Assembly (NCBI RefSeq): GCF_003704095.1
Contig: NW_020846775.1
Span: 310,001 to 374,000 of the forward strand
DNA: 64,000 nucleotides
Direction of reading: 5' to 3'
Origin: Pocillopora damicornis
Taxonomy: Eukaryota
Made by a program: the position numbers and the translations under genes. Under the pieces are notes generated by a model. It saw nothing but the letters and a program-made list of their open reading frames with translations, ran no database searches and was not told where the DNA came from. Shown here piece after piece: positions 1 to 10,228 of this stretch (positions are counted from its first letter, which is position 1; each line of letters opens with the position of its first letter).

Positions 1-445
1 CTGCAAACTCAGTAAATTCGATTGTTGTTTCGGTTGGTCGTGAACTTCTACCTCCCATTTCTGGGCCTTTTTAGGTGAGGAAAACGGCATTCAAAAGCTT
101 GAAATCTGGTTAATTCACTCAGAGTTCCTGAGGTCAGGTCTTTGCTATTTTGCTTAGCCGAAAACATCTGTAATTATAGAAAAAAATTATAACCCAAGTT
201 ATGCCTTGGCTTTACATTAATACTTCACAACGAAAACCATTCAAGTTACTCTGCACGCAAGAAACATGAAATTAAGTGAAACTGATACCTTCTGCAATGG
301 GACAAAGACGATAGTAATCCGAAAAGTCAAGCAAGAAAGCCAAAAATTCTCCGGCGTACAACTTCAATTATCCGGCACGACTTAAACATTTCAGCACGAC
401 TTCAACTTTCCCGCGCGACTTTAACATTCCGGCGCGACTTTAACT
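1..445 (-). pseudogene. Second copy of the 5' end of the Ulp1-domain gene (matches 3085..~3530), with a 1-bp frameshifting deletion; runs off the window edge
   Basis: 1..445 aligns to 3085..~3530 with about 15 differences by eye. CTACCTCCCATT here versus CTACCTTCCCATT in the other copy breaks the frame. Could be an uncollapsed haplotype. Confidence 0.6.
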
Positions 446-651
446 NNNNNNNNNNNNNNNNNNNNNNNNNNNNNNNNNNNNNNNNNNNNNNNNNNNNNNN
501 NNNNNNNNNNNNNNNNNNNNNNNNNNNNNNNNNNNNNNNNNNNNNATGATATTTATAATAAGTAATTTCGAGATTTCTCTTAGTTTGAAACAAAGATCTA
601 AGATGACATGACTATAAAGTAGAGATTTCTTTCGTTGACCTGAAATAGTAC

Positions 652-3252
652 CTTGAGACTTTCCTCTTTTCTTTCCAGTTNNNNNNNNNNTGTAACTCCC
701 ACAACGGTTGCACTGGAAATAATCGACCCTGAGCCCACTGTTTTTTTGTTTCTTGGAACCTTTAGTAGCAAATAAGTAAGCAAATAAAAAGTTATATAAC
801 AAAGTGAATGGATGAATTAATGAATTAACTAATTAATCAATTNNNNNNNNNNCAATTACTGGTTGAAAGTGAGACATGTTAATTGCCTGATGAGACTGGC
901 TTTATTGCATTTTCAAGGGTTACCGCTTTCTTTAAGTAACGCACCTGTCACCTTGACAAAAGAGCAGCCTTCTTTCTCCTCAGTGTCCGCTTTCCACGTC
1001 TCGANNNNNNNNNNAAAGATATATTATGTGTCATTTGGGACTCGACTAATGGTCTGAAATAAGTAGATATGAAAGTTATAAGAGATGTTTAATTTTAAAA
1101 AAAGAGGCTGAGTAANNNNNNNNNNNNNNNNNNNNNNNNNNNNNNNNNNNNNNNNNNNNNNNNNNNNNNNNNNNNNNNNNNNNNNNNNNNNNNNNNNNNN
1201 NNNNNNNNNNNNNNNNNNNNNNNNNNNNNNNNNNNNNNNNNNNNNNNNNNNNNNNNNNNNNNNNNNNNNNNNNNNNNNNNNNNNNNNNNNNNNNNNNNNN
1301 NNNNNNNNNNNNNNNNNNNNNNNNNNNNNNNNNNNNNNNNNNNNNNNNNNNNNNNNNNNNNNNNNNNNNNNNNNNNNNNNNNNNNNNNNNNNNNNNNNNN
1401 NNNNNNNNNNNNNNNNNNNNNNNNNNNNNNNNNNNNNNNNNNNNNNNNNNNNNNNNNNNNNNNNNNNNNNNNNNNNNNNNNNNNNNNNNNNNNNNNNNNN
1501 NNNNNNNNNNNNNNNNNNNNNNNNNNNNNNNNNNNNNNNNNCCCGGTTCCTCGTTCACCTCTATGCTGCTCTCCACTACCTGGCCTATGCTTTGGACTGT
1601 CATCACGGTTTCTTTTCTCATCACAAGTGACTCTATCGTCGTCAATTGCTCTGTCACGATCGCCCTTGTTTTTTCCATCTTTCTCTCCTCCCACTCTCTT
1701 AACAGGAATATTACGGTATTTCTCTTGACTGGCCTTGTCANNNNNNNNNNCACTTTTGTAGACTTTTTTTTCATAGTTATCATTGATCTTTTGTAACTGT
1801 TTGTTGCCCAGGATTTTATCCTCTGCCTCACTGCTGCTTTGAGTGCTCTCAGTTCNNNNNNNNNNTTCCGCTTTTCTTTGAATACAAAGTCCCATCTCAT
1901 TGTTCTCTGCGGTGTTGTCTCTCTCATCTATGTCTCCTTTTGATGACGGTACTCGAGGAGTGTCCAAGTCCGAATCGGAGTCTGACTGGCTCTCGTGTCT
2001 AAGTTCGGGGCGAAGAAAAGAAGATGGAACCACATGCTCAGGNNNNNNNNNNTTCTCACCGATCCATCCCATGATCACTCTACGCAAGTACTTTGCATAG
2101 CGCGTTGGAGCACTTATGAAGACATTTGAAGGCGACACCGCCTGCAATTGACCTGAAGTGGTAATGTGAGAAAAAAATGATCGGGCTGTACAGGCGTACA
2201 NNNNNNNNNNNNNNNNNNNNNNNNNNNNNNNNNNNNNNNNNNNNNNNNNNNNNNNNNNNNNNNNNNNNNNNNNNNNNNNNNNNNNNNNNNNNNNNNNNNN
2301 ATGCACAGCTGAATCCACATTTGTGCTCCCGTTCAGTGGAAACGTTACTTGAAGTGTGACACTCGAAAACGGAGAAGTCGGATAAACATTCTCCATAAAT
2401 GTGCTCGATGAATTGCTCTAATCTAGGCAAGAGGTCGACTGGTACGCTCCAAGCCAGTGAGTCACCATAGACTATTTTCTTTTTTTCCCGATCAACATGG
2501 CACATTGTCCAGTGACAACCACTCCGGGATCCGCTTGCAATGAATACATTGCCACTCGAATCCTTACCCACATTAAGGACAAAGAACAAACTCGTTGGCT
2601 TTGACTGGCCATCTGGAAGAGAGCGAGCCACGAACACCTCTACATCCAACACGTGATTGATGTGAACACAAAGAGTTTTTTTCTGTGAAATATTTAGATC
2701 GTCAAGCAACCAATGTACATGATCAGATGAGATCCACCGATCACAACAAAGATTCGCCATTTCATTGGGTGACATTTGAAGACCATCGACCTGCTTATCA
2801 AATTTTTCTCCGTAAATAAGATTTTGGAACTTTTTGATGGAATCAGTGGCAGGATGGCTTATCACAGAAAGTGGGCGAGGGTAGGTCGATGCAAACCAGT
2901 CGAGTTCTTTCTCGACAGCTCTCTTAATATCTATTGCCTCGGTAATCCGAAGCATGCCTTTGATTCCATCGTCATCAAAACAACCCAAAGAACTTTCCGC
3001 ATAGCAATAGCTTTTTGGATTAGAGTTCTTAACTCTCCTCATTTCATCCCTCCATGACTCTAACGTATGCCTATCTGGAATATACTGCAAACTCAGTAAA
3101 TTCGATTGTTGTTTCGGTTGGTCGTGAACTTCTACCTTCCCATTTCTGGGCCTTTTTAGGTGAGGAAAACGGCATTCAAAAGCTTTAAATCTTGTTAATT
3201 CACTCAGAGTTCCTGAGGTCAGGTCTTTGCTATTTTGCTTAGCCGAAAACAT
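652..3252 (-). CDS. Ulp1/SENP (C48) protease-domain protein with downstream exons resembling the N-terminal region of MULE-type transposases; incomplete because of gaps
   Basis: The large exon (3252 to ~1542) has DRWISSDHVHWLL and GCHWTMCHVD..IVYGDSL (C48 His/Asp motifs); the catalytic Cys would fall in gap 2201-2300. A charged linker follows. AG/GT-bounded, phase-compatible exons 1053..945 (ETWKADTEEKEGCSFVKVTG) and 759..652 (SKKQKNSGLRVDYFQCNRCGSY..TGKKRGKSQG) follow that. Confidence 0.65.
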
Positions 3253-3434
3253 CTGTAATTATAGAAAAAAATTACAACCCAAGTTATGCCTTGGCTTTAC
3301 ATTAATACTTCACAACGAAAACCATTCAAGTTACTCTGCACGTAAGAAACATGAAATTAAGTGAAACTGATACCTTCTGCAATGGGATAAAGACGATGGT
3401 AATCCCAAAAGTCAAACACGAAAGCCAAAAATTA

Positions 3435-3625
3435 TCCGGCGTACAACTTCAACTATCCGGCACGACCTAAACATTTCAGCACGACTTTAACTTTCCCGCG
3501 CGACTTTAACATTCCGGCGTGACTTTAAGTTTCCGGCACGAATTTAACATTCCGGTACGACTTTTAATTTTCCGGAACGTCTTTCTCTGGTCTGTAAAAA
3601 TTAAAGTTGAAGTCTTGCCGGCTAA
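3435..3625. repeat. ~20-bp degenerate tandem repeat (TTCCGGCACGACTTTAACAT-like), about 7 units plus an inverted unit; also at ~350-445
   Basis: Units are directly visible; an inverted unit AAGTCTTGCCGG lies at ~3610-3621. Confidence 0.8.
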
Positions 3626-4254
3626 AAACTGAGGTGGCGAAAATTAAAGTTGAGGTGGTGGAAAAATGTTGATGAGAAGTACAAGATGGCACTTATGTCA
3701 ATCGCAATGTCACGCAACACTGGAAAGGCACTGCGTGTGCACCTGCTGTAAAAGAGTAGTTGACTGAGTAGGAGGGTTTGACGGGAACTGATACCGACCG
3801 AGCGCAGCAACGTCCGTGCGTCATGAATGAGAGCCAAATATTTTCCTGTCCGGCCCCACCTTAGTCAGTGAATAAGAATTTTTAATATGATTGTCACACT
3901 GTCTTTTTCTTTCTACTTTCGCATCTCGTAGGCCCTCGCGCGGGGATTTTCTTGTAATTGTTTCGATAAAAGCGCCCGGGAGATCGTACTGGTCTTAGGA
4001 TAAATTGACATTATCGCTGAAAAAGTGCATGGCCGGCTTTAAGCATGGTAGAGCTCAACATAGGAAGAACGTAGTAAAACACTAAAATCCAAAACGATTG
4101 GCAAAAAAAAAGAGAGAAAATTAATAAATGCACGCGCACGAATCGGAGCTATTCCTGTCAGCGGTGAAATACAGGAATGGCTCCAGTTTCTGGTCGTCCG
4201 CCTGAACTGAATAATTAGTTTAGTCAATGAAACTAGTCAGCGGATGACTTTATC

Positions 4255-4650
4255 GCCGGAATATCGCTGAACGACCTTGCTGATCAAGAAAGGCCTTCTC
4301 TTCGTTATGTAAGTGACCATTTCCTGTTTCACACATCGGTATTTTCACTCGAATTGATATTTCATCGTTCCGCTTCGAGACACACGGTCAAACAATACTC
4401 ACGAGCAAGGNNNNNNNNNNNNNNNNNNNNNNNNNNNNNNNNNNNNNNNNNNNNNNNNNNNNNNNNNNNNNNNNNNNNNNNNNNNNNNNNNNNNNNNNNN
4501 NNNNNNNNNNGCCGGAATATCGCTGAACGACCTTGCTGAACAAGAAAGGCCTTCTCTTCGTTATATAAGTAACCATTTCCTGTTTCACACATCGGTATTT
4601 TTCACTCGCATTGATATTTCATCGTTCCGCTTCGAGACACAGTCAAACAA
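4255..4650. repeat. ~140-bp near-identical duplication flanking a 100-N gap, probably an assembly overlap
   Basis: 4255-4395 matches 4511-4650 on either side of N run 4411-4510. Confidence 0.8.
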
Positions 4651-4866
4651 GAGTTAAGATATAACTTATTACTTTTACTATTTTTATCATCCAATTACAG
4701 GTCGGAGCCATTCCTGTATTTAGTCGCTTGTCGGTGTTTTGGGTACCCCCGCGTTTTTGGTATAACGCTCAACCATCGATTATGATGGCCCAGTGAAATA
4801 CAAATCCAAGGAATCGCTGTCAAAAGTCATTACATCTTCCAACATTCCGAAACGAGACTCCTCAAG

Positions 4867-6576
4867 ATGAATATACCCGAGCAAGGGCACAAAACTCCAC
4901 ATACTGTGTCTCTGATTGTTGAGGATGGGAAGGAATTCAAGACGCTTTCACATATTCTTTCCACAGCAAGTCCCTTCTTTGAAAAACTTCTCTCCAGCAA
5001 CATGAAAGAGAATCAGGAGGGGGTTATTCGATTGGAGGTCTTCACGGAGTCGCTGATGAAAGATGTTCTCGAGTTTATTCAGACTGGTAACGTTCGGATT
5101 TCGACTCGTGAAAATGCCGAAGAGCTCGTTGCAGCAGCGGATTACCTATGTCTCTCCAAGCTCAAGTCGTTCGCTGGGAAGTTTATCGAGCAGACCATGT
5201 CCTCTTTAAACTGCGTTTCAACTTACTTCATGGCGGAAAAATTCGATCATTCCGAGCTGTTAGACAGCGTGCGGAAGTTCATCTTATCAAATTTTGCCGA
5301 CGTCGCACAAACAGAAAACTTCCCACGTTTACCGAGTCACGAGGTTGAACAGTTGGTGTCCAGCGACGATATTGTTATCAATTCAGAGGAAGACGTTTTC
5401 AATGCAATTTTCAAGTGGACCCTTCACAAGAAAAGTGAAAGAAGCAAAGAATTCTGTAAACTCTTCAGTCACGTTCGATTGACCTTTCTGTCGCGTGACT
5501 TTTTACTGAAGGATGTCGTGACAAACGAAATTGTGACAGAAAATGAAGACTGTATTGATCGCGTGAACAGTGCGTTAGCTTGGATGAATCGAAAAACCGA
5601 CTGCGACCTTTCCCGGCCGTATTCTCCAAGGAAGGCAATGGAGACATGTGTCATTGCAATATGGGGAGAGGATAAGACATTCCGCCCTCTTTTCTATGTT
5701 CCTGAAAATAATGATTTTTATCAGCTACCGGGTATGGCCGAACCGGACTGTGTACCACAGCATGTCTTCTCATGCCGAGGGAAACTATTCTTTGTTGCCC
5801 AGGAAGTAAATAAATCGCAATATTATGACCCAGACTCCAACTGCTGGCATCCAGCACCATGGACGAAGACCGATTCAAAGCCAAATTGGTGCAAAACTAA
5901 CCGTCGAGAGATAGGCAAACTATTTCTTCGCGCAGTGTTAGTTGTCGAAAACGAAATTTGTTTTATTGAAGAAAATCTACAAATTTATTCAAGCTGTCTC
6001 TGTCAATTTAACTTGGACAAGAAATCCACGACTCGCTCGAAGGACTGGTTAAAAACAACAAGGACTTGTCTCGTTACTTTGGGCCAGTACATCTACGTCA
6101 TAGGAGGGACAAAATCCGACGTAAATATCGTCCCCCATTGCTCTAGGTATGACATCGTGAAAAACAAATGGCAGAAATTGGCAAACTTACGCTTTGCAAG
6201 ATTTAGAGCCCTTGGAATTGGAACACAAGAAAAGATTTACGTCGCTGGAGGATGGCTCGACTTCGGCGGTGAGATTACCAACACGTGTGAGGTTTACAGT
6301 GTATTGACTGATGAGTGGCATTTAATTGGTCGTTTAACAGTTCCCCGGGACATTGGAAACATGCTATCGATCGATGAATCTTTGTACGTATTGGGTGGAG
6401 TTTGCCATCCCGTTCTTGGAAAGATATGGTCAGTTGAAAGCTACGAACACGAAAAAGATGAGTGGAAAGAAAACCGACATTTCCTTGACATTCACAAAAT
6501 CATGACGTTCACAGCGTGTACCTTTAGACTGTTGAAAGACGTGTCAGTTAAGCTGAAACACCATGGCAACTCTTAA
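4867..6576 (+). CDS. Kelch-like BTB-BACK-Kelch protein, intronless CDS (paralog A, 569 aa)
   Basis: BTB (VSLIVEDGKEF..ILSTASPFFEKLL..NMKE), BACK (LVSSDDIVINSEEDVFNAIFKW..LFSHVRL), Kelch blades YVIGG/YVAGG/YVLGG with Y..W spacing. Confidence 0.93.
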   Translation: MNIPEQGHKTPHTVSLIVEDGKEFKTLSHILSTASPFFEKLLSSNMKENQEGVIRLEVFTESLMKDVLEFIQTGNVRISTRENAEELVAAADYLCLSKLKSFAGKFIEQTMSSLNCVSTYFMAEKFDHSELLDSVRKFILSNFADVAQTENFPRLPSHEVEQLVSSDDIVINSEEDVFNAIFKWTLHKKSERSKEFCKLFSHVRLTFLSRDFLLKDVVTNEIVTENEDCIDRVNSALAWMNRKTDCDLSRPYSPRKAMETCVIAIWGEDKTFRPLFYVPENNDFYQLPGMAEPDCVPQHVFSCRGKLFFVAQEVNKSQYYDPDSNCWHPAPWTKTDSKPNWCKTNRREIGKLFLRAVLVVENEICFIEENLQIYSSCLCQFNLDKKSTTRSKDWLKTTRTCLVTLGQYIYVIGGTKSDVNIVPHCSRYDIVKNKWQKLANLRFARFRALGIGTQEKIYVAGGWLDFGGEITNTCEVYSVLTDEWHLIGRLTVPRDIGNMLSIDESLYVLGGVCHPVLGKIWSVESYEHEKDEWKENRHFLDIHKIMTFTACTFRLLKDVSVKLKHHGNS

Positions 6577-8518: not shown

Positions 8519-10228
8519 ATGAATTTGTCCGATCAAGCCGAGTCTGAATTGTCTAAAACTGTGTCTCTGATTGTTCAGGATGGGAAGGAATTGAAGACGC
8601 TTAGACATGTTCTTTCCCAAGCAAGTCCCTTCTTTGAAAAACTCCTCACCAGCAACATGAAAGAGAATAACGAAGGAGTAGTTCGATTGGAAGTCTTTAA
8701 TGAATCGCTGATGAAAGATGTTCTCGAGTTTATTCACACTGGTAACGTTCAGATTTCGACTAGTGAAAATGCCGAGGAGCTCATCGCGGCAGCGGATTAC
8801 ATGTGTCTCTCCAAGCTCAAGTCGTTCGCTGGGAAGTTTATCGAGCAGACCATGTCCTCTTCAAACTGCGTTTCAACTTACTTCATGGCAGAAAAATTCG
8901 ATCATTCCGAGCTGTTAGACAGCTCGCGGAAGTTTATGTTATCAAAATTTGTCAACGTCGCACAAACAGGAAATTTCCTACGCTTACCGAGGCATGAAGT
9001 TGAACAATTGGTTTCCAGCGACGATGTAGTTATCAAGTCAGAGGAAGACGTTTTTAAGGCAATATTAAGGTGGACCCTTCACAAGAAAAGTGAAAGAAGC
9101 AAAGAATTCTGTAAACTCTTCTGTCACGTTCGATTAACATTTCTGTCGCGTGACTTTTTACTGAATGATGTCGTGACAAACGAACTTGTGACAGAAAATG
9201 AAGATTGTATCAGTAGCGCGACTAACGCTTTAGCTTGGATAGATCGTGCTGGTGACGATGACTTTTCAAGACCGTTTTCTCCACGAAAGGCTCTTGAGAA
9301 AAGTGTCATCGCAATTTACAGAAAGGATAAGCCTTTTAAGAACCCTCTCTTTTACCTTCCCAAAAAGAATGATATTTATCGCTTGCAGGGCATGGCCAAA
9401 ACGGACTGTGAACCGGAACATGTCTTCTCATGCCGGGGGAAACTGTTTTTCGTTTCCAAAGAAGTGGATGAATCACAATATTATGACCCAGACTTCAACT
9501 GCTGGCGTGCAGCACCCTGGACGAAAACAGATTCAGAAATAAACTGGCTGCACTGGCGAGCAATGGGTATACGACATCGTCGCAAAGTAGTAGTCGTTCA
9601 GAACGAAATTTGTTTCATAGAAGAAGATTTAGAGGAAGACTCAAGCTGTCTCTGGAAATTCAACCTGGACACGAATTCCACGAGTTGCTCGAAAGACTGG
9701 CTGGAAAGAACAAGAATTTGTGCCGTAACTGTTGGGAAGTACATTTATGCTATCGGTGGGGTTAGAGACATAAATATTATTAAACAATGCTCGAAGTTTG
9801 ACATCGCGGAAAACAAATGGGAGAAGTTAGCGGATTTAAACCTGACCAGGTATGATGCCCTTGGAGTTGGAACACAAGAAAAGATTTACGTCGCTGGAGG
9901 GTGGCTGGACTTTGATGAGATTACCAACACGTGTGAAGTTTACAACAGGTCCACAGATGAGTGGAACTTGATGTGTCGTTTAACAGTTTCCCGGCCTTTT
10001 GGAAACTTGGTGTTAGTTGGTAATTCTTTGTACGCGGTGGGTGGTGCTGTACATGATTTATTTAGAAAGATATGGTCAGTTGAGAAGTACGACTATGAAA
10101 AAGATGAGTGGGAAGAAAAGAAATGTACCCTCTGCGTTGAAAACATTTCGCCGTACCAAGCCTCTTCCTTCACACTTTTGAAAGAGGATTCAGTCAAGTT
10201 GAAACGTTACAAAGGTATCTTTCGCTGA
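8519..10228 (+). CDS. Kelch-like BTB-BACK-Kelch protein, intronless CDS (paralog B, 569 aa)
   Basis: Colinear paralog of 4867..6576 with the same domain motifs; a splice acceptor TTGCTGTTAG at ~8465 suggests a 5' UTR intron. Confidence 0.93.
   Translation: MNLSDQAESELSKTVSLIVQDGKELKTLRHVLSQASPFFEKLLTSNMKENNEGVVRLEVFNESLMKDVLEFIHTGNVQISTSENAEELIAAADYMCLSKLKSFAGKFIEQTMSSSNCVSTYFMAEKFDHSELLDSSRKFMLSKFVNVAQTGNFLRLPRHEVEQLVSSDDVVIKSEEDVFKAILRWTLHKKSERSKEFCKLFCHVRLTFLSRDFLLNDVVTNELVTENEDCISSATNALAWIDRAGDDDFSRPFSPRKALEKSVIAIYRKDKPFKNPLFYLPKKNDIYRLQGMAKTDCEPEHVFSCRGKLFFVSKEVDESQYYDPDFNCWRAAPWTKTDSEINWLHWRAMGIRHRRKVVVVQNEICFIEEDLEEDSSCLWKFNLDTNSTSCSKDWLERTRICAVTVGKYIYAIGGVRDINIIKQCSKFDIAENKWEKLADLNLTRYDALGVGTQEKIYVAGGWLDFDEITNTCEVYNRSTDEWNLMCRLTVSRPFGNLVLVGNSLYAVGGAVHDLFRKIWSVEKYDYEKDEWEEKKCTLCVENISPYQASSFTLLKEDSVKLKRYKGIFR

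What the first reader, a model, noticed from the sequence alone, without database searches (positions are those of the whole stretch)
652..3252. Spliced gene joining an N-terminal Ulp1/SENP protease to a Mutator-type transposase N-terminal motif
Seen: a C48-like domain (W.SD..; HW..; GDSL), a charged linker, then two small exons that the ORF track does not connect. They splice in phase (VKVT-G/GT-SKKQ) to give F..ETWKADTEEKEGCSFVKVTGSKK..DYFQCNRCGSY..TGKKRGKSQG. Recalled knowledge: F..WK...E followed by Y.C.R.G...KR..K.QG resembles the start of the WRKY-GCM1/FAR1-type Zn domain of animal MULE transposases, and Ulp1 capture is known in plant MULEs and in Zisupton. Inference: this is an animal transposon, or a domesticated derivative, carrying a deSUMOylase ahead of its DNA-binding region, possibly countering SUMO-dependent silencing. 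The catalytic Cys, the link across gap 1116-1541 and any DDE domain are not visible.
Basis: partly seen in the sequence, partly recalled or inferred. Interest (0 to 1): 0.72.

Follow-up and report, generated by a model that had tools for sequence, protein, structure and literature searches.

The report
Promoter-homing coral transposon with SUMO-type protease
This is a gapped, truncated copy of a coral jumping-gene family whose spliced transposase begins with a SUMO-protease-like domain (a pairing already known), and whose copies very often sit exactly 21 bases from one short DNA motif that resembles a YY1 promoter site, which likely means the element homes in on active promoters with base-level precision.

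Summary
Gap-free sister copies in the same genome supply what the window hides: the Q-x5-C catalytic Cys, two C2H2 fingers in gap 1116-1541, and a downstream DDE core, SWIM and PHD-like fingers. RNA contigs show all three introns spliced. The gene belongs to a Mutator (MULE) family with ~350-bp terminal inverted repeats (one at window 4136-4731) and 9-bp target duplications. Homologues with the same front-end protease occur in sea stars and a sea slug. Ulp1 in animal MULEs is in print, and this scan noted such fusions on other DNA; the N-terminal position is a variant. The unexpected result is the target site: ATGG starts exactly 21 bases outside the element end at 17 of 56 ends (20 at 20-21; background 0.0023 per position), within a YY1-type motif, in otherwise unrelated CpG-rich flanks, and again at one independent metagenome insertion. 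I did not find such motif-spaced targeting described for a eukaryotic MULE; bacterial Mutator-like TnGBS does the analogous thing at sigma-A promoters. Whether host YY1 or the element's own fingers guide it, and what the protease cuts, is untested.

The parts
4136..4731 (-). Left terminal inverted repeat (~350 bp; outer end at 4731; part of it is assembled twice across the N gap 4411-4510)
   Evidence: Matches TIRs of paired non-autonomous copies at 84-85%; 27 exact hits to its 24-nt end in G000; duplicate 4255-4345/4511-4601
3424..3586 (-). Subterminal array of 19-bp tandem repeats upstream of the gene
   Evidence: family D1
2301..3252 (-). Coding exon 1, first part: N-terminal extension and first two thirds of the Ulp1/C48-fold protease (Trp 2736-2734, His 2514-2512, Asp 2463-2461); ATG lies directly behind an AG acceptor, so a further upstream exon is likely
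   Evidence: upstream exon inferred from AG|ATG and 22 unplaced letters in an RNA contig (X3 record 22)
2201..2300 (-). N gap; in copies U and H 60 nt with the oxyanion Gln and catalytic Cys (Q-x5-C)
1542..2200 (-). Coding exon 1, second part: end of protease fold and charged, predicted disordered linker
1116..1541 (-). N gap; in copy H 242 nt with two C2H2 zinc fingers and the donor of intron 1
   Evidence: joint seen in RNA
945..1007 (-). Exon 2 (E-F-E-T-W-K...V-K-V-T), start of the WRKY-GCM1-type domain
652..759 (-). Exon 3 (G-S-K-K...Y-F-Q-C-N-R-C-G...K-S-Q-G)
546..651 (-). Start of intron 3; this copy ends here at an N gap, so the DDE, SWIM and PHD exons are absent from this place
1..445 (-). 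5' part of a second, tandem copy (U) that continues to G000:C3410:307175; carries stops and frameshifts
4867..6576 (+). Neighbouring host BTB-BACK-Kelch gene; its ATG is about 135 bp outside the TIR end (not part of the element)

Best explanation
The stretch is a truncated copy of a Mutator-type cut-and-paste transposon whose single spliced gene encodes protease - linker - two C2H2 fingers - WRKY-GCM1-type finger - DDE core - SWIM - PHD-like finger, and whose family inserts with a 9-bp duplication 21 bases from a YY1-type motif, likely because the transposase is tethered there by host YY1 at active promoters. Shown: anatomy, splicing, TIRs, TSDs, motif spacing, conserved catalytic triad. Inferred: the tether is host YY1 (my odds about 50%; the element's own finger pair about 30%; fixed promoter geometry or other about 20%). 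Inferred: the protease is active and removes SUMO (less likely NEDD8 or ubiquitin) from the transposase or from proteins at the donor or target site, keeping the transpososome working or the element unsilenced. The window copy itself cannot move on its own as assembled.
For: Copy H: MULE 26.7 bits (cut-off 27.6), ZSWIM1-3 RNaseH-like E 2e-5, D/D/CxxH/E motifs aligned to homologues; homologue P0125 passes the MULE cut-off; model of homologue P0186 matches the IS256/Mutator transposase ISCth4 best (Z 13.6, rmsd 5.5, 262 aligned) and residues 58-156 match Aft2, a WRKY-GCM1 protein (Z 5.6, rmsd 3.1, 73 aligned). Triad in 151 aligned family members: His 136 of 142, Asp 142 of 145, Gln 122 of 129, Cys 118 of 129 rows with a residue. 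RNA joints: intron 1 in frame in 3 of 7 RNA runs (2 studies), intron 2 in 3 of 7, intron 3 in 5 of 7; none in the DNA-like run X16. TIR-bounded derivatives carry the 3' end of the same gene (L027-L030, L034). 9-bp TSD with 8-9 matches in 5 of 11 candidate end pairs, and 7-9-bp slipped repeats in 2 more. ATGG at exactly -21 in 17 of 56 ends, 20 at -20/-21, background 0.0023 per position, binomial P about 1e-31; strict motif in the first 40 nt in 14 of 56 ends, 0 in reverse orientation, 6 of 1733 background bins; all 7 TSD-bearing pairs have it on one side; independent metagenome insertion L090 also at -21. Motif columns (A/G)-(A/T)-N-A-T-G-G-C-G with a free position before ATG fit the YY1 consensus as I recall it; YY1-family motifs are in 40-51% of active Pocillopora promoters (10.64898/2026.09.10.745915, passages); flanks are CpG-richer than sequence 1.1-1.4 kb away (P 0.0005). 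A YY1-transposase-TIR interaction is known for lancelet ProtoRAG (PMC7481187, abstract).
Against: No binding or cleavage was tested; 'YY1' rests on recalled consensus, not on a motif-library scan. 36 of 56 ends lack the motif at -20/-21 (about 28 are expected to, being the other side), and the window's own TIR flank and H's lack it on the one side that is assembled. Three end positions were shifted by eye before the count; two of them add to the 17 (15 without). Two motif flanks are paralogous and three non-motif flanks are one repeat, so 16 of 53 are independent. The sites were not shown to be promoters; ATG-initiated frames at the 7 rebuilt sites are short (5-43 codons). No intact full-length element was found in G000 (H, U, C750, C3122, C108 are broken), no single RNA contig spans catalytic Cys to DDE, intron 1 is also retained in contigs of X1, X2, X5, one joint in X3 is out of frame, and contigs of X4 and X6 carry frameshifts in exon 4. 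pN/pS between copies is only 0.49-0.58. The Acanthaster homologue has Ser in place of the catalytic Cys, and two spider homologues as annotated lack the protease.
Confidence: 0.66

Rival explanations
1. Same element, but its own two C2H2 fingers read the ATGGCG motif directly and set the 21-base distance; YY1 is not needed.
For: Helix position 6 of finger 1 is Arg in 33 of 36 family members with that finger, with K/R at -1 and mostly N at 3; finger 2 has R at -1 and D/E at 3. By the recalled recognition code these read GAT and GCG, both in the motif. The TIR itself has ATGGC at +21 and an inverted copy at its inner end.
Against: The base before ATG is free in the targets (G 9, C 5, T 3, A 3 of 20) although finger 1 would want G; the triplet order is opposite to canonical binding; the code is recalled and weak; the fingers may bind the TIR instead.
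Confidence: 0.3
2. General promoter preference plus chromatin geometry or survival bias: the element lands in open promoters like maize Mu, and the motif is a passenger.
For: Mu hotspots lie at gene 5' ends (10.64898/2026.05.18.725947, passages); YY1 motifs are common at coral promoters; flanks are CpG-rich on both sides.
Against: Mu hotspots average 1.4 kb; here the signal is one or two base positions wide and one-directional, with no excess of the motif at 40-200 nt.
Confidence: 0.15
3. The coral gene is a domesticated host gene (protease-transposase fusion) and the repeats are relics.
For: Spliced transcripts in several runs; sea-star homologues are 84% (Patiria-Acanthaster) and 63% (to Asterias) identical over full length and annotated as host genes.
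Against: Window copy and H have unrelated flanks, i.e. separate insertions 96% alike; at least six coding copies, all but the visible parts of the window copy broken; TIR intact and shared with non-autonomous copies.
Confidence: 0.08
4. The protease is a self-processing or separately expressed module: it cuts the polyprotein in the linker, or intron-1 retention yields a free protease-finger protein that acts in trans.
For: Long disordered linker; intron-1-retaining RNA contigs; polyprotein processing was proposed for OTU-bearing MULEs (PMC1702500, passages).
Against: No conserved Gly-Gly cleavage motif was looked for or noticed in the linker; retained-intron contigs may be unspliced RNA or DNA.
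Confidence: 0.15
5. The tandem arrangement of the window copy and copy U is an assembly artefact (two alleles or paralogues joined at a scaffold gap); this does not affect the family anatomy.
For: The joint is a 100-N gap; a similar overlap duplication flanks gap 4411-4510; neither copy has a right TIR or DDE exon nearby.
Against: U and the window copy differ by 3.7%, as much as either differs from H, and U has its own 210-bp intron insertion.
Confidence: 0.5

Closest known systems
Animal MULE transposases with two classic Zn fingers before a WRKY-GCM1 domain, some with C-terminal PHD (sea urchin, Ciona, Caenorhabditis; Babu et al. 2006, PMC1702500, passages)
   Same: 2xC2H2 - WRKY-GCM1-type - DDE - SWIM - PHD order
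   Different: An Ulp1-fold protease precedes the fingers; that paper has no 'Ulp1', 'SUMO' or 'peptidase' in its text
Ulp1-bearing DNA transposons: Mutator of hydra, lancelet, Arabidopsis, maize, rice, melon; Ginger1 (Bao et al. 2010, PMC2836005, passages)
   Same: C48/Ulp1 domain carried by a cut-and-paste transposon, including in a cnidarian
   Different: In Ginger1 the protease is C-terminal; the Repbase Reports entries for hydra and lancelet MuDR were not available, so their domain order is not checked (I recall it as C-terminal). Here it is N-terminal, below the Pfam cut-off, and has a conserved His/His/Cys/Cys insert before the catalytic Cys
Ghost and Spectre MULE clades (Dupeyron et al. 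2019, PMC6446971, passages and 3 readable supplements)
   Same: Invertebrate MULEs, Ghost with cnidarian members, Spectre with a C2H2 finger, 8-9-bp TSD
   Different: No protease reported; clade membership not tested because the FASTA supplements could not be read
TnGBS / ISLre2 / ISKra4 prokaryotic Mutator-like elements (Guerillot et al. 2014, PMC3942029, passages)
   Same: Mutator-superfamily transposase inserting at a fixed distance (15-17 bp) from a promoter motif
   Different: Bacterial sigma-A promoters and oriented ends; here a eukaryotic YY1-type motif at 21 nt, with no preference seen for either element end
Maize Mu and Aedes Muta1 (10.64898/2026.05.18.725947; PMC5225508; passages)
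   Same: 8-9-bp TSD, long TIR, preference for gene-rich or 5' regions
   Different: Mu hotspots are about 1.4 kb wide and Muta1 shows little or no sequence preference; this family shows base-precise motif spacing
Dada target-specific DNA transposons (PMC3706591, search listing only)
   Same: Sequence-specific integration by a eukaryotic DDE transposon
   Different: Targets here are not small-RNA genes: 0 Rfam hits in 19 loci, 0 tRNAs in 21 loci

Membership tests
Mutator/MULE superfamily | RNase H-like DDE core with C/D-x2-H after the second Asp | tested here: met
   Copy H and homologues; fold best matches ISCth4. Absent from the window copy itself, which is truncated
Mutator/MULE superfamily | Long terminal inverted repeats | tested here: met
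   ~350-bp TIRs on paired copies that carry the gene's 3' end; left TIR in the window; no complete coding element with both TIRs assembled
Mutator/MULE superfamily | 8-11-bp target site duplication | tested here: met
   9 bp in 5 of 11 candidate pairs, slipped in 2 more
Mutator/MULE superfamily | WRKY-GCM1-type N-terminal DNA-binding finger and SWIM finger | tested here: inconclusive
   No Pfam hit on these exons; Cys/His pattern aligns with homologues; homologue model matches Aft2 at modest Z 5.6
Peptidase C48 (Ulp1/SENP, clan CE) | CE-clan fold | tested here: met
   Model of P0001 (pLDDT 84): SENP1 Z 18.4, Ulp1 17.8, NEDP1 14.6
Peptidase C48 (Ulp1/SENP, clan CE) | His-Asp-Cys triad with oxyanion Gln | tested here: met
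   His and Asp in the window, Gln and Cys in U/H; conserved across the family
Peptidase C48 (Ulp1/SENP, clan CE) | Pfam PF02902 gathering score | tested here: not met
   17.4-18.5 vs 20.7 bits; 20 of 94 members hit at E<=0.01, best 8e-5: a divergent branch
Peptidase C48 (Ulp1/SENP, clan CE) | Cleaves SUMO conjugates | not testable with these tools
   Needs an enzyme assay
Ghost or Spectre MULE clade | Placement in the DDE tree | not testable with these tools
   Reference FASTA supplements not readable
Zisupton/KDZ | KDZ transposase and CxC domains | tested here: not met
   Pfam and fold point to MULE/IS256; no KDZ or CxC family among hits
Dada-type small-RNA-gene targeting transposon | Insertion in snRNA/tRNA genes | tested here: not met
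YY1 binding site (target motif) | Match to a curated YY1 matrix and YY1 occupancy | not testable with these tools
   Consensus compared from recall only; column counts

The most novel reading that the evidence does not exclude
This is a natural, base-precise promoter-homing eukaryotic DNA transposon: a widespread invertebrate MULE clade docks on a YY1 site (through YY1 or its own finger pair), integrates 21 bases away, and uses its front-end, zinc-insert CE protease to strip SUMO from the docking complex; sea stars have domesticated the same fusion.
Probability: 0.3. Interest if true: 0.86.

Novelty: new variant of a known kind. Interest (0 to 1): 0.64.

Why it matters
How Mutator elements find promoters is an open question; maize Mu shows broad 5' hotspots without a known guide. 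A family with a one-base-wide spacing to a named promoter motif makes the guide directly testable (YY1 versus own fingers), parallels bacterial TnGBS, and would be a rare natural example of motif-directed DNA transposition in animals, of interest for targeted integration tools. It also offers an expressed, triad-intact case for the long-standing question of why transposons carry SUMO/ubiquitin proteases. The protease-transposase fusion alone would be ordinary.

Tried and rejected
Word-based search for longer fused homologues of the protease found none; the profile search did. H as the allele of the window copy: rejected, flanks outside the TIR differ. The 350-bp repeat as an independent MITE inserted upstream of the gene: rejected, it bounds derivatives holding this gene's 5' subterminal and 3' sequence. 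Motif as part of a shared flanking repeat: rejected for all but one paralogous pair. Small-RNA-gene targets: none. Orientation bias of element ends towards the motif: none seen (11 of 31 vs 5 of 12 by a diagnostic TIR base, 4 of 8 unclassified). The kelch paralogue at window ~8.5 kb did not reach the insertion point, so the window's empty site could not be rebuilt. Long reading frames from the motif ATG: not found. PDB sequence search with one protein gave only weak hits. No complex prediction was run (enzyme-substrate pair). Literature: no paper found describing an N-terminal Ulp1 on a MULE or YY1-motif-spaced insertion in searches; Repbase Reports and most subscription papers are not in the library, two FASTA supplements of PMC6446971 and all bioRxiv supplements were not readable, so prior description cannot be excluded. 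No earlier scan note on this sequence or genome fitted.

Full report
Setting. The window is G000:C3410:310001-374000. The host is a pocilloporid coral, inferred from 91% identity of the protease to a protein named Pocillopora meandrina. The region 446-2300 is broken by N runs.

Observation. Pfam gives Peptidase_C48 below cut-off. A DNA search found two close copies, U directly upstream of the window and H on C3552, plus older pieces on C750, C108 and C3122. W (window), U and H are 96.0-96.5% alike. U and H show that gap 2201-2300 stands for 60 nt with Q-T-C-S-[N/D]-I-C-G and that gap 1116-1541 stands for about 242 nt with two C2H2 fingers and the first donor. H continues through a third intron into T-C-K-I..H-S-G-H, a DDE core with C-T-W-H (Pfam MULE 26.7 bits, cut-off 27.6) and a SWIM-type finger. 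The 3' end, seen in C3122 and L029, has a PHD-like Cys/His pattern split by an intron (pattern only). H and U have stops and frameshifts; the visible parts of W have none, but W stops at the gap at 546 and no DDE exon or right TIR was found near it.

Splicing. Contigs of seven RNA runs (one a guessed RNA run) and one run of unrecorded kind were laid on H. The in-frame joint from the finger exon to exon 2 is in X4, X5, X6 (two studies); exon 2 to 3 in X3, X4, X5; exon 3 to the DDE exon in X1, X2, X4, X5, X6; none is in X16. X6 has one 1220-nt contig running from before the linker into exon 2. Contigs of X1-X3 carry letters that restore the frame at H's frameshifts, so an intact copy probably exists and is expressed. 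Against: no contig spans Cys to DDE, intron 1 is retained in X1, X2, X5, X3 has an out-of-frame joint, and X4 and X6 have frameshifts in exon 4, so broken copies are transcribed too.

Protease family. A profile search found 699 proteins at E<=0.001. Among 151 aligned, His, Asp, Gln and Cys are kept in 136/142, 142/145, 122/129 and 118/129 rows, and an insert before the Cys keeps His, His, Cys, Cys (129/140, 110/135, 129/133, 128/133), a possible zinc site (inference). The model of homologue P0001 (pLDDT 84) matches SENP1, Ulp1, SENP3/5 ahead of NEDP1 and bacterial CE proteases; Atlas features also point to C48. Full-length proteins with protease, fingers and MULE core in this order are annotated in Patiria (XP_038070595) and Aplysia (XP_005091692), and an unnamed one ends in a PHD; of 18 long hits scanned, 4 had a MULE hit. 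A second MULE lineage (Stylophora PFX12216; remnant on C2597) has a related protease in front of a ZSWIM-type core. A model of the spider homologue P0186 matches ISCth4 best and Aft2 weakly at the N-terminal finger.

Element. Window 4136-4731 is a ~350-bp TIR with 54 end matches in G000 at up to two mismatches, 0 for the reversed control. Paired TIRs bound non-autonomous copies of 0.35-2.4 kb, several of which hold the gene's 3' end and 5' subterminal sequence. Five of 11 candidate pairs have a 9-bp TSD with 8-9 matches; two more have slipped 7-9-bp repeats. W and H have unrelated flanks. W's TIR ends about 135 bp before the ATG of a BTB-Kelch gene.

Target site. Reading the flanks showed a recurring AAGATGGCG-like word. 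Of 58 ends collected, 2 were dropped for N; in 56, the strict pattern lay in the first 40 nt in 14 (10 at 21 nt, one more with two motifs of which the outer is at 21, two at 20, one at 13), never reversed, versus 6 of 1733 farther bins. Counting ATGG by position gave 17 at -21 and 3 at -20 against 0.0023 per position (P about 1e-31); 15 without my by-eye shifts, 16 of 53 after removing related flanks. Only one end of an insertion can face the motif, so roughly 20 of 28 insertions follow the rule, and all 7 TSD-bearing pairs do. The single metagenome hit, a diverged TIR variant, has the motif at -21 as well. So the 9-bp TSD begins 12 bases after the A of ATG. The flanks are CpG-richer than distant DNA and are not small-RNA genes. 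The motif fits YY1 by my recall; a Pocillopora ChIP-seq preprint reports YY1-family motifs in 40-51% of active promoters (passages).

Mechanism. Shown: a Mutator family with this anatomy, splicing and motif spacing. Inferred: a protein bound to the motif positions the transpososome. I favour host YY1 because the free base before ATG and the AA before it match YY1 rather than a strict finger triplet, and YY1 binds a transposase and TIR in lancelet (abstract); the element's own conserved finger pair is the main rival. The protease is inferred to be active and to remove SUMO from the transposase or from proteins at the site; no substrate test was possible.

Comparison. Ulp1 in hydra and lancelet Mutators and in Ginger1 is in print (PMC2836005, passages). 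The 2xC2H2-WRKY-GCM1-MULE-PHD order is in print without a protease (PMC1702500, passages). Two MULE surveys do not mention proteases (PMC6446971, PMC13359780; passages). Fixed-distance promoter insertion is known for bacterial Mutator-like TnGBS (PMC3942029, passages), a lead taken from an earlier scan note. Aedes Muta1 shows little sequence preference and maize Mu has kilobase-wide hotspots (passages). I found no description of an N-terminal Ulp1 MULE or of YY1-motif-spaced insertion in searches, but Repbase Reports were out of reach.

Verdict. Observation confirmed, interpretation supported, fusion a variant of a known theme; the base-precise target rule is the result worth following. New variant of a known kind, interest 0.64.

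Noticed in passing
P0016, P0167, P0168 (Patiria, Acanthaster, Asterias): Same protease-finger-MULE fusion conserved at 84% and 63% over full length in three sea stars, with altered N-x3-E motif; Acanthaster has Ser for the catalytic Cys. Possibly a domesticated gene.
   Followed up: partly
L021 3340-5466 (G000:C2597), P0132: A second MULE lineage (ZSWIM1/3-type core) carries a related protease at its N-terminus, suggesting a swap or second capture.
   Followed up: partly
P0001 residues 305-322 and equivalents (window about 2360-2302): Conserved His-x10-His-x-Cys-x3-Cys insert just before the catalytic Cys; possible zinc site not typical of SENPs.
   Followed up: partly
P0013, P0010, P0015: Family members without transposase hits; P0013 has two tandem protease domains, the second lacking the catalytic Cys motif.
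   Followed up: no
L018 372-1533 and 7098-8211 (G000:C3122): A 1.2-kb inverted duplication of the gene's 3' end flanks an older copy; looks like a non-autonomous derivative next to a coding copy.
   Followed up: partly
TIR positions 21 and about 321 (L024 1315-1680): The TIR holds ATGGC at +21 from its end, mirroring the -21 target motif, and a palindromic double copy at its inner end.
   Followed up: partly
window 4867-6576 and about 8520-10205: Two tandem BTB-BACK-Kelch paralogues, 78% alike; the element sits just upstream of the first.
   Followed up: partly
G000:C3410:308037-308246: A 210-bp dispersed repeat inserted in intron 1 of copy U; further copies and several long inverted repeats lie at C3410 290-303 kb.
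   Followed up: no
G000:C2713, C2801, C3127 TIR ends: Three TIR ends share the same 190-bp flank (85-92%), so one insertion was copied along with a host repeat.
   Followed up: partly
G000:C1307:676900 and C4019:221288: Insertions at the same position of two paralogous flanks (76% alike), possibly independent hits on the same motif.
   Followed up: no
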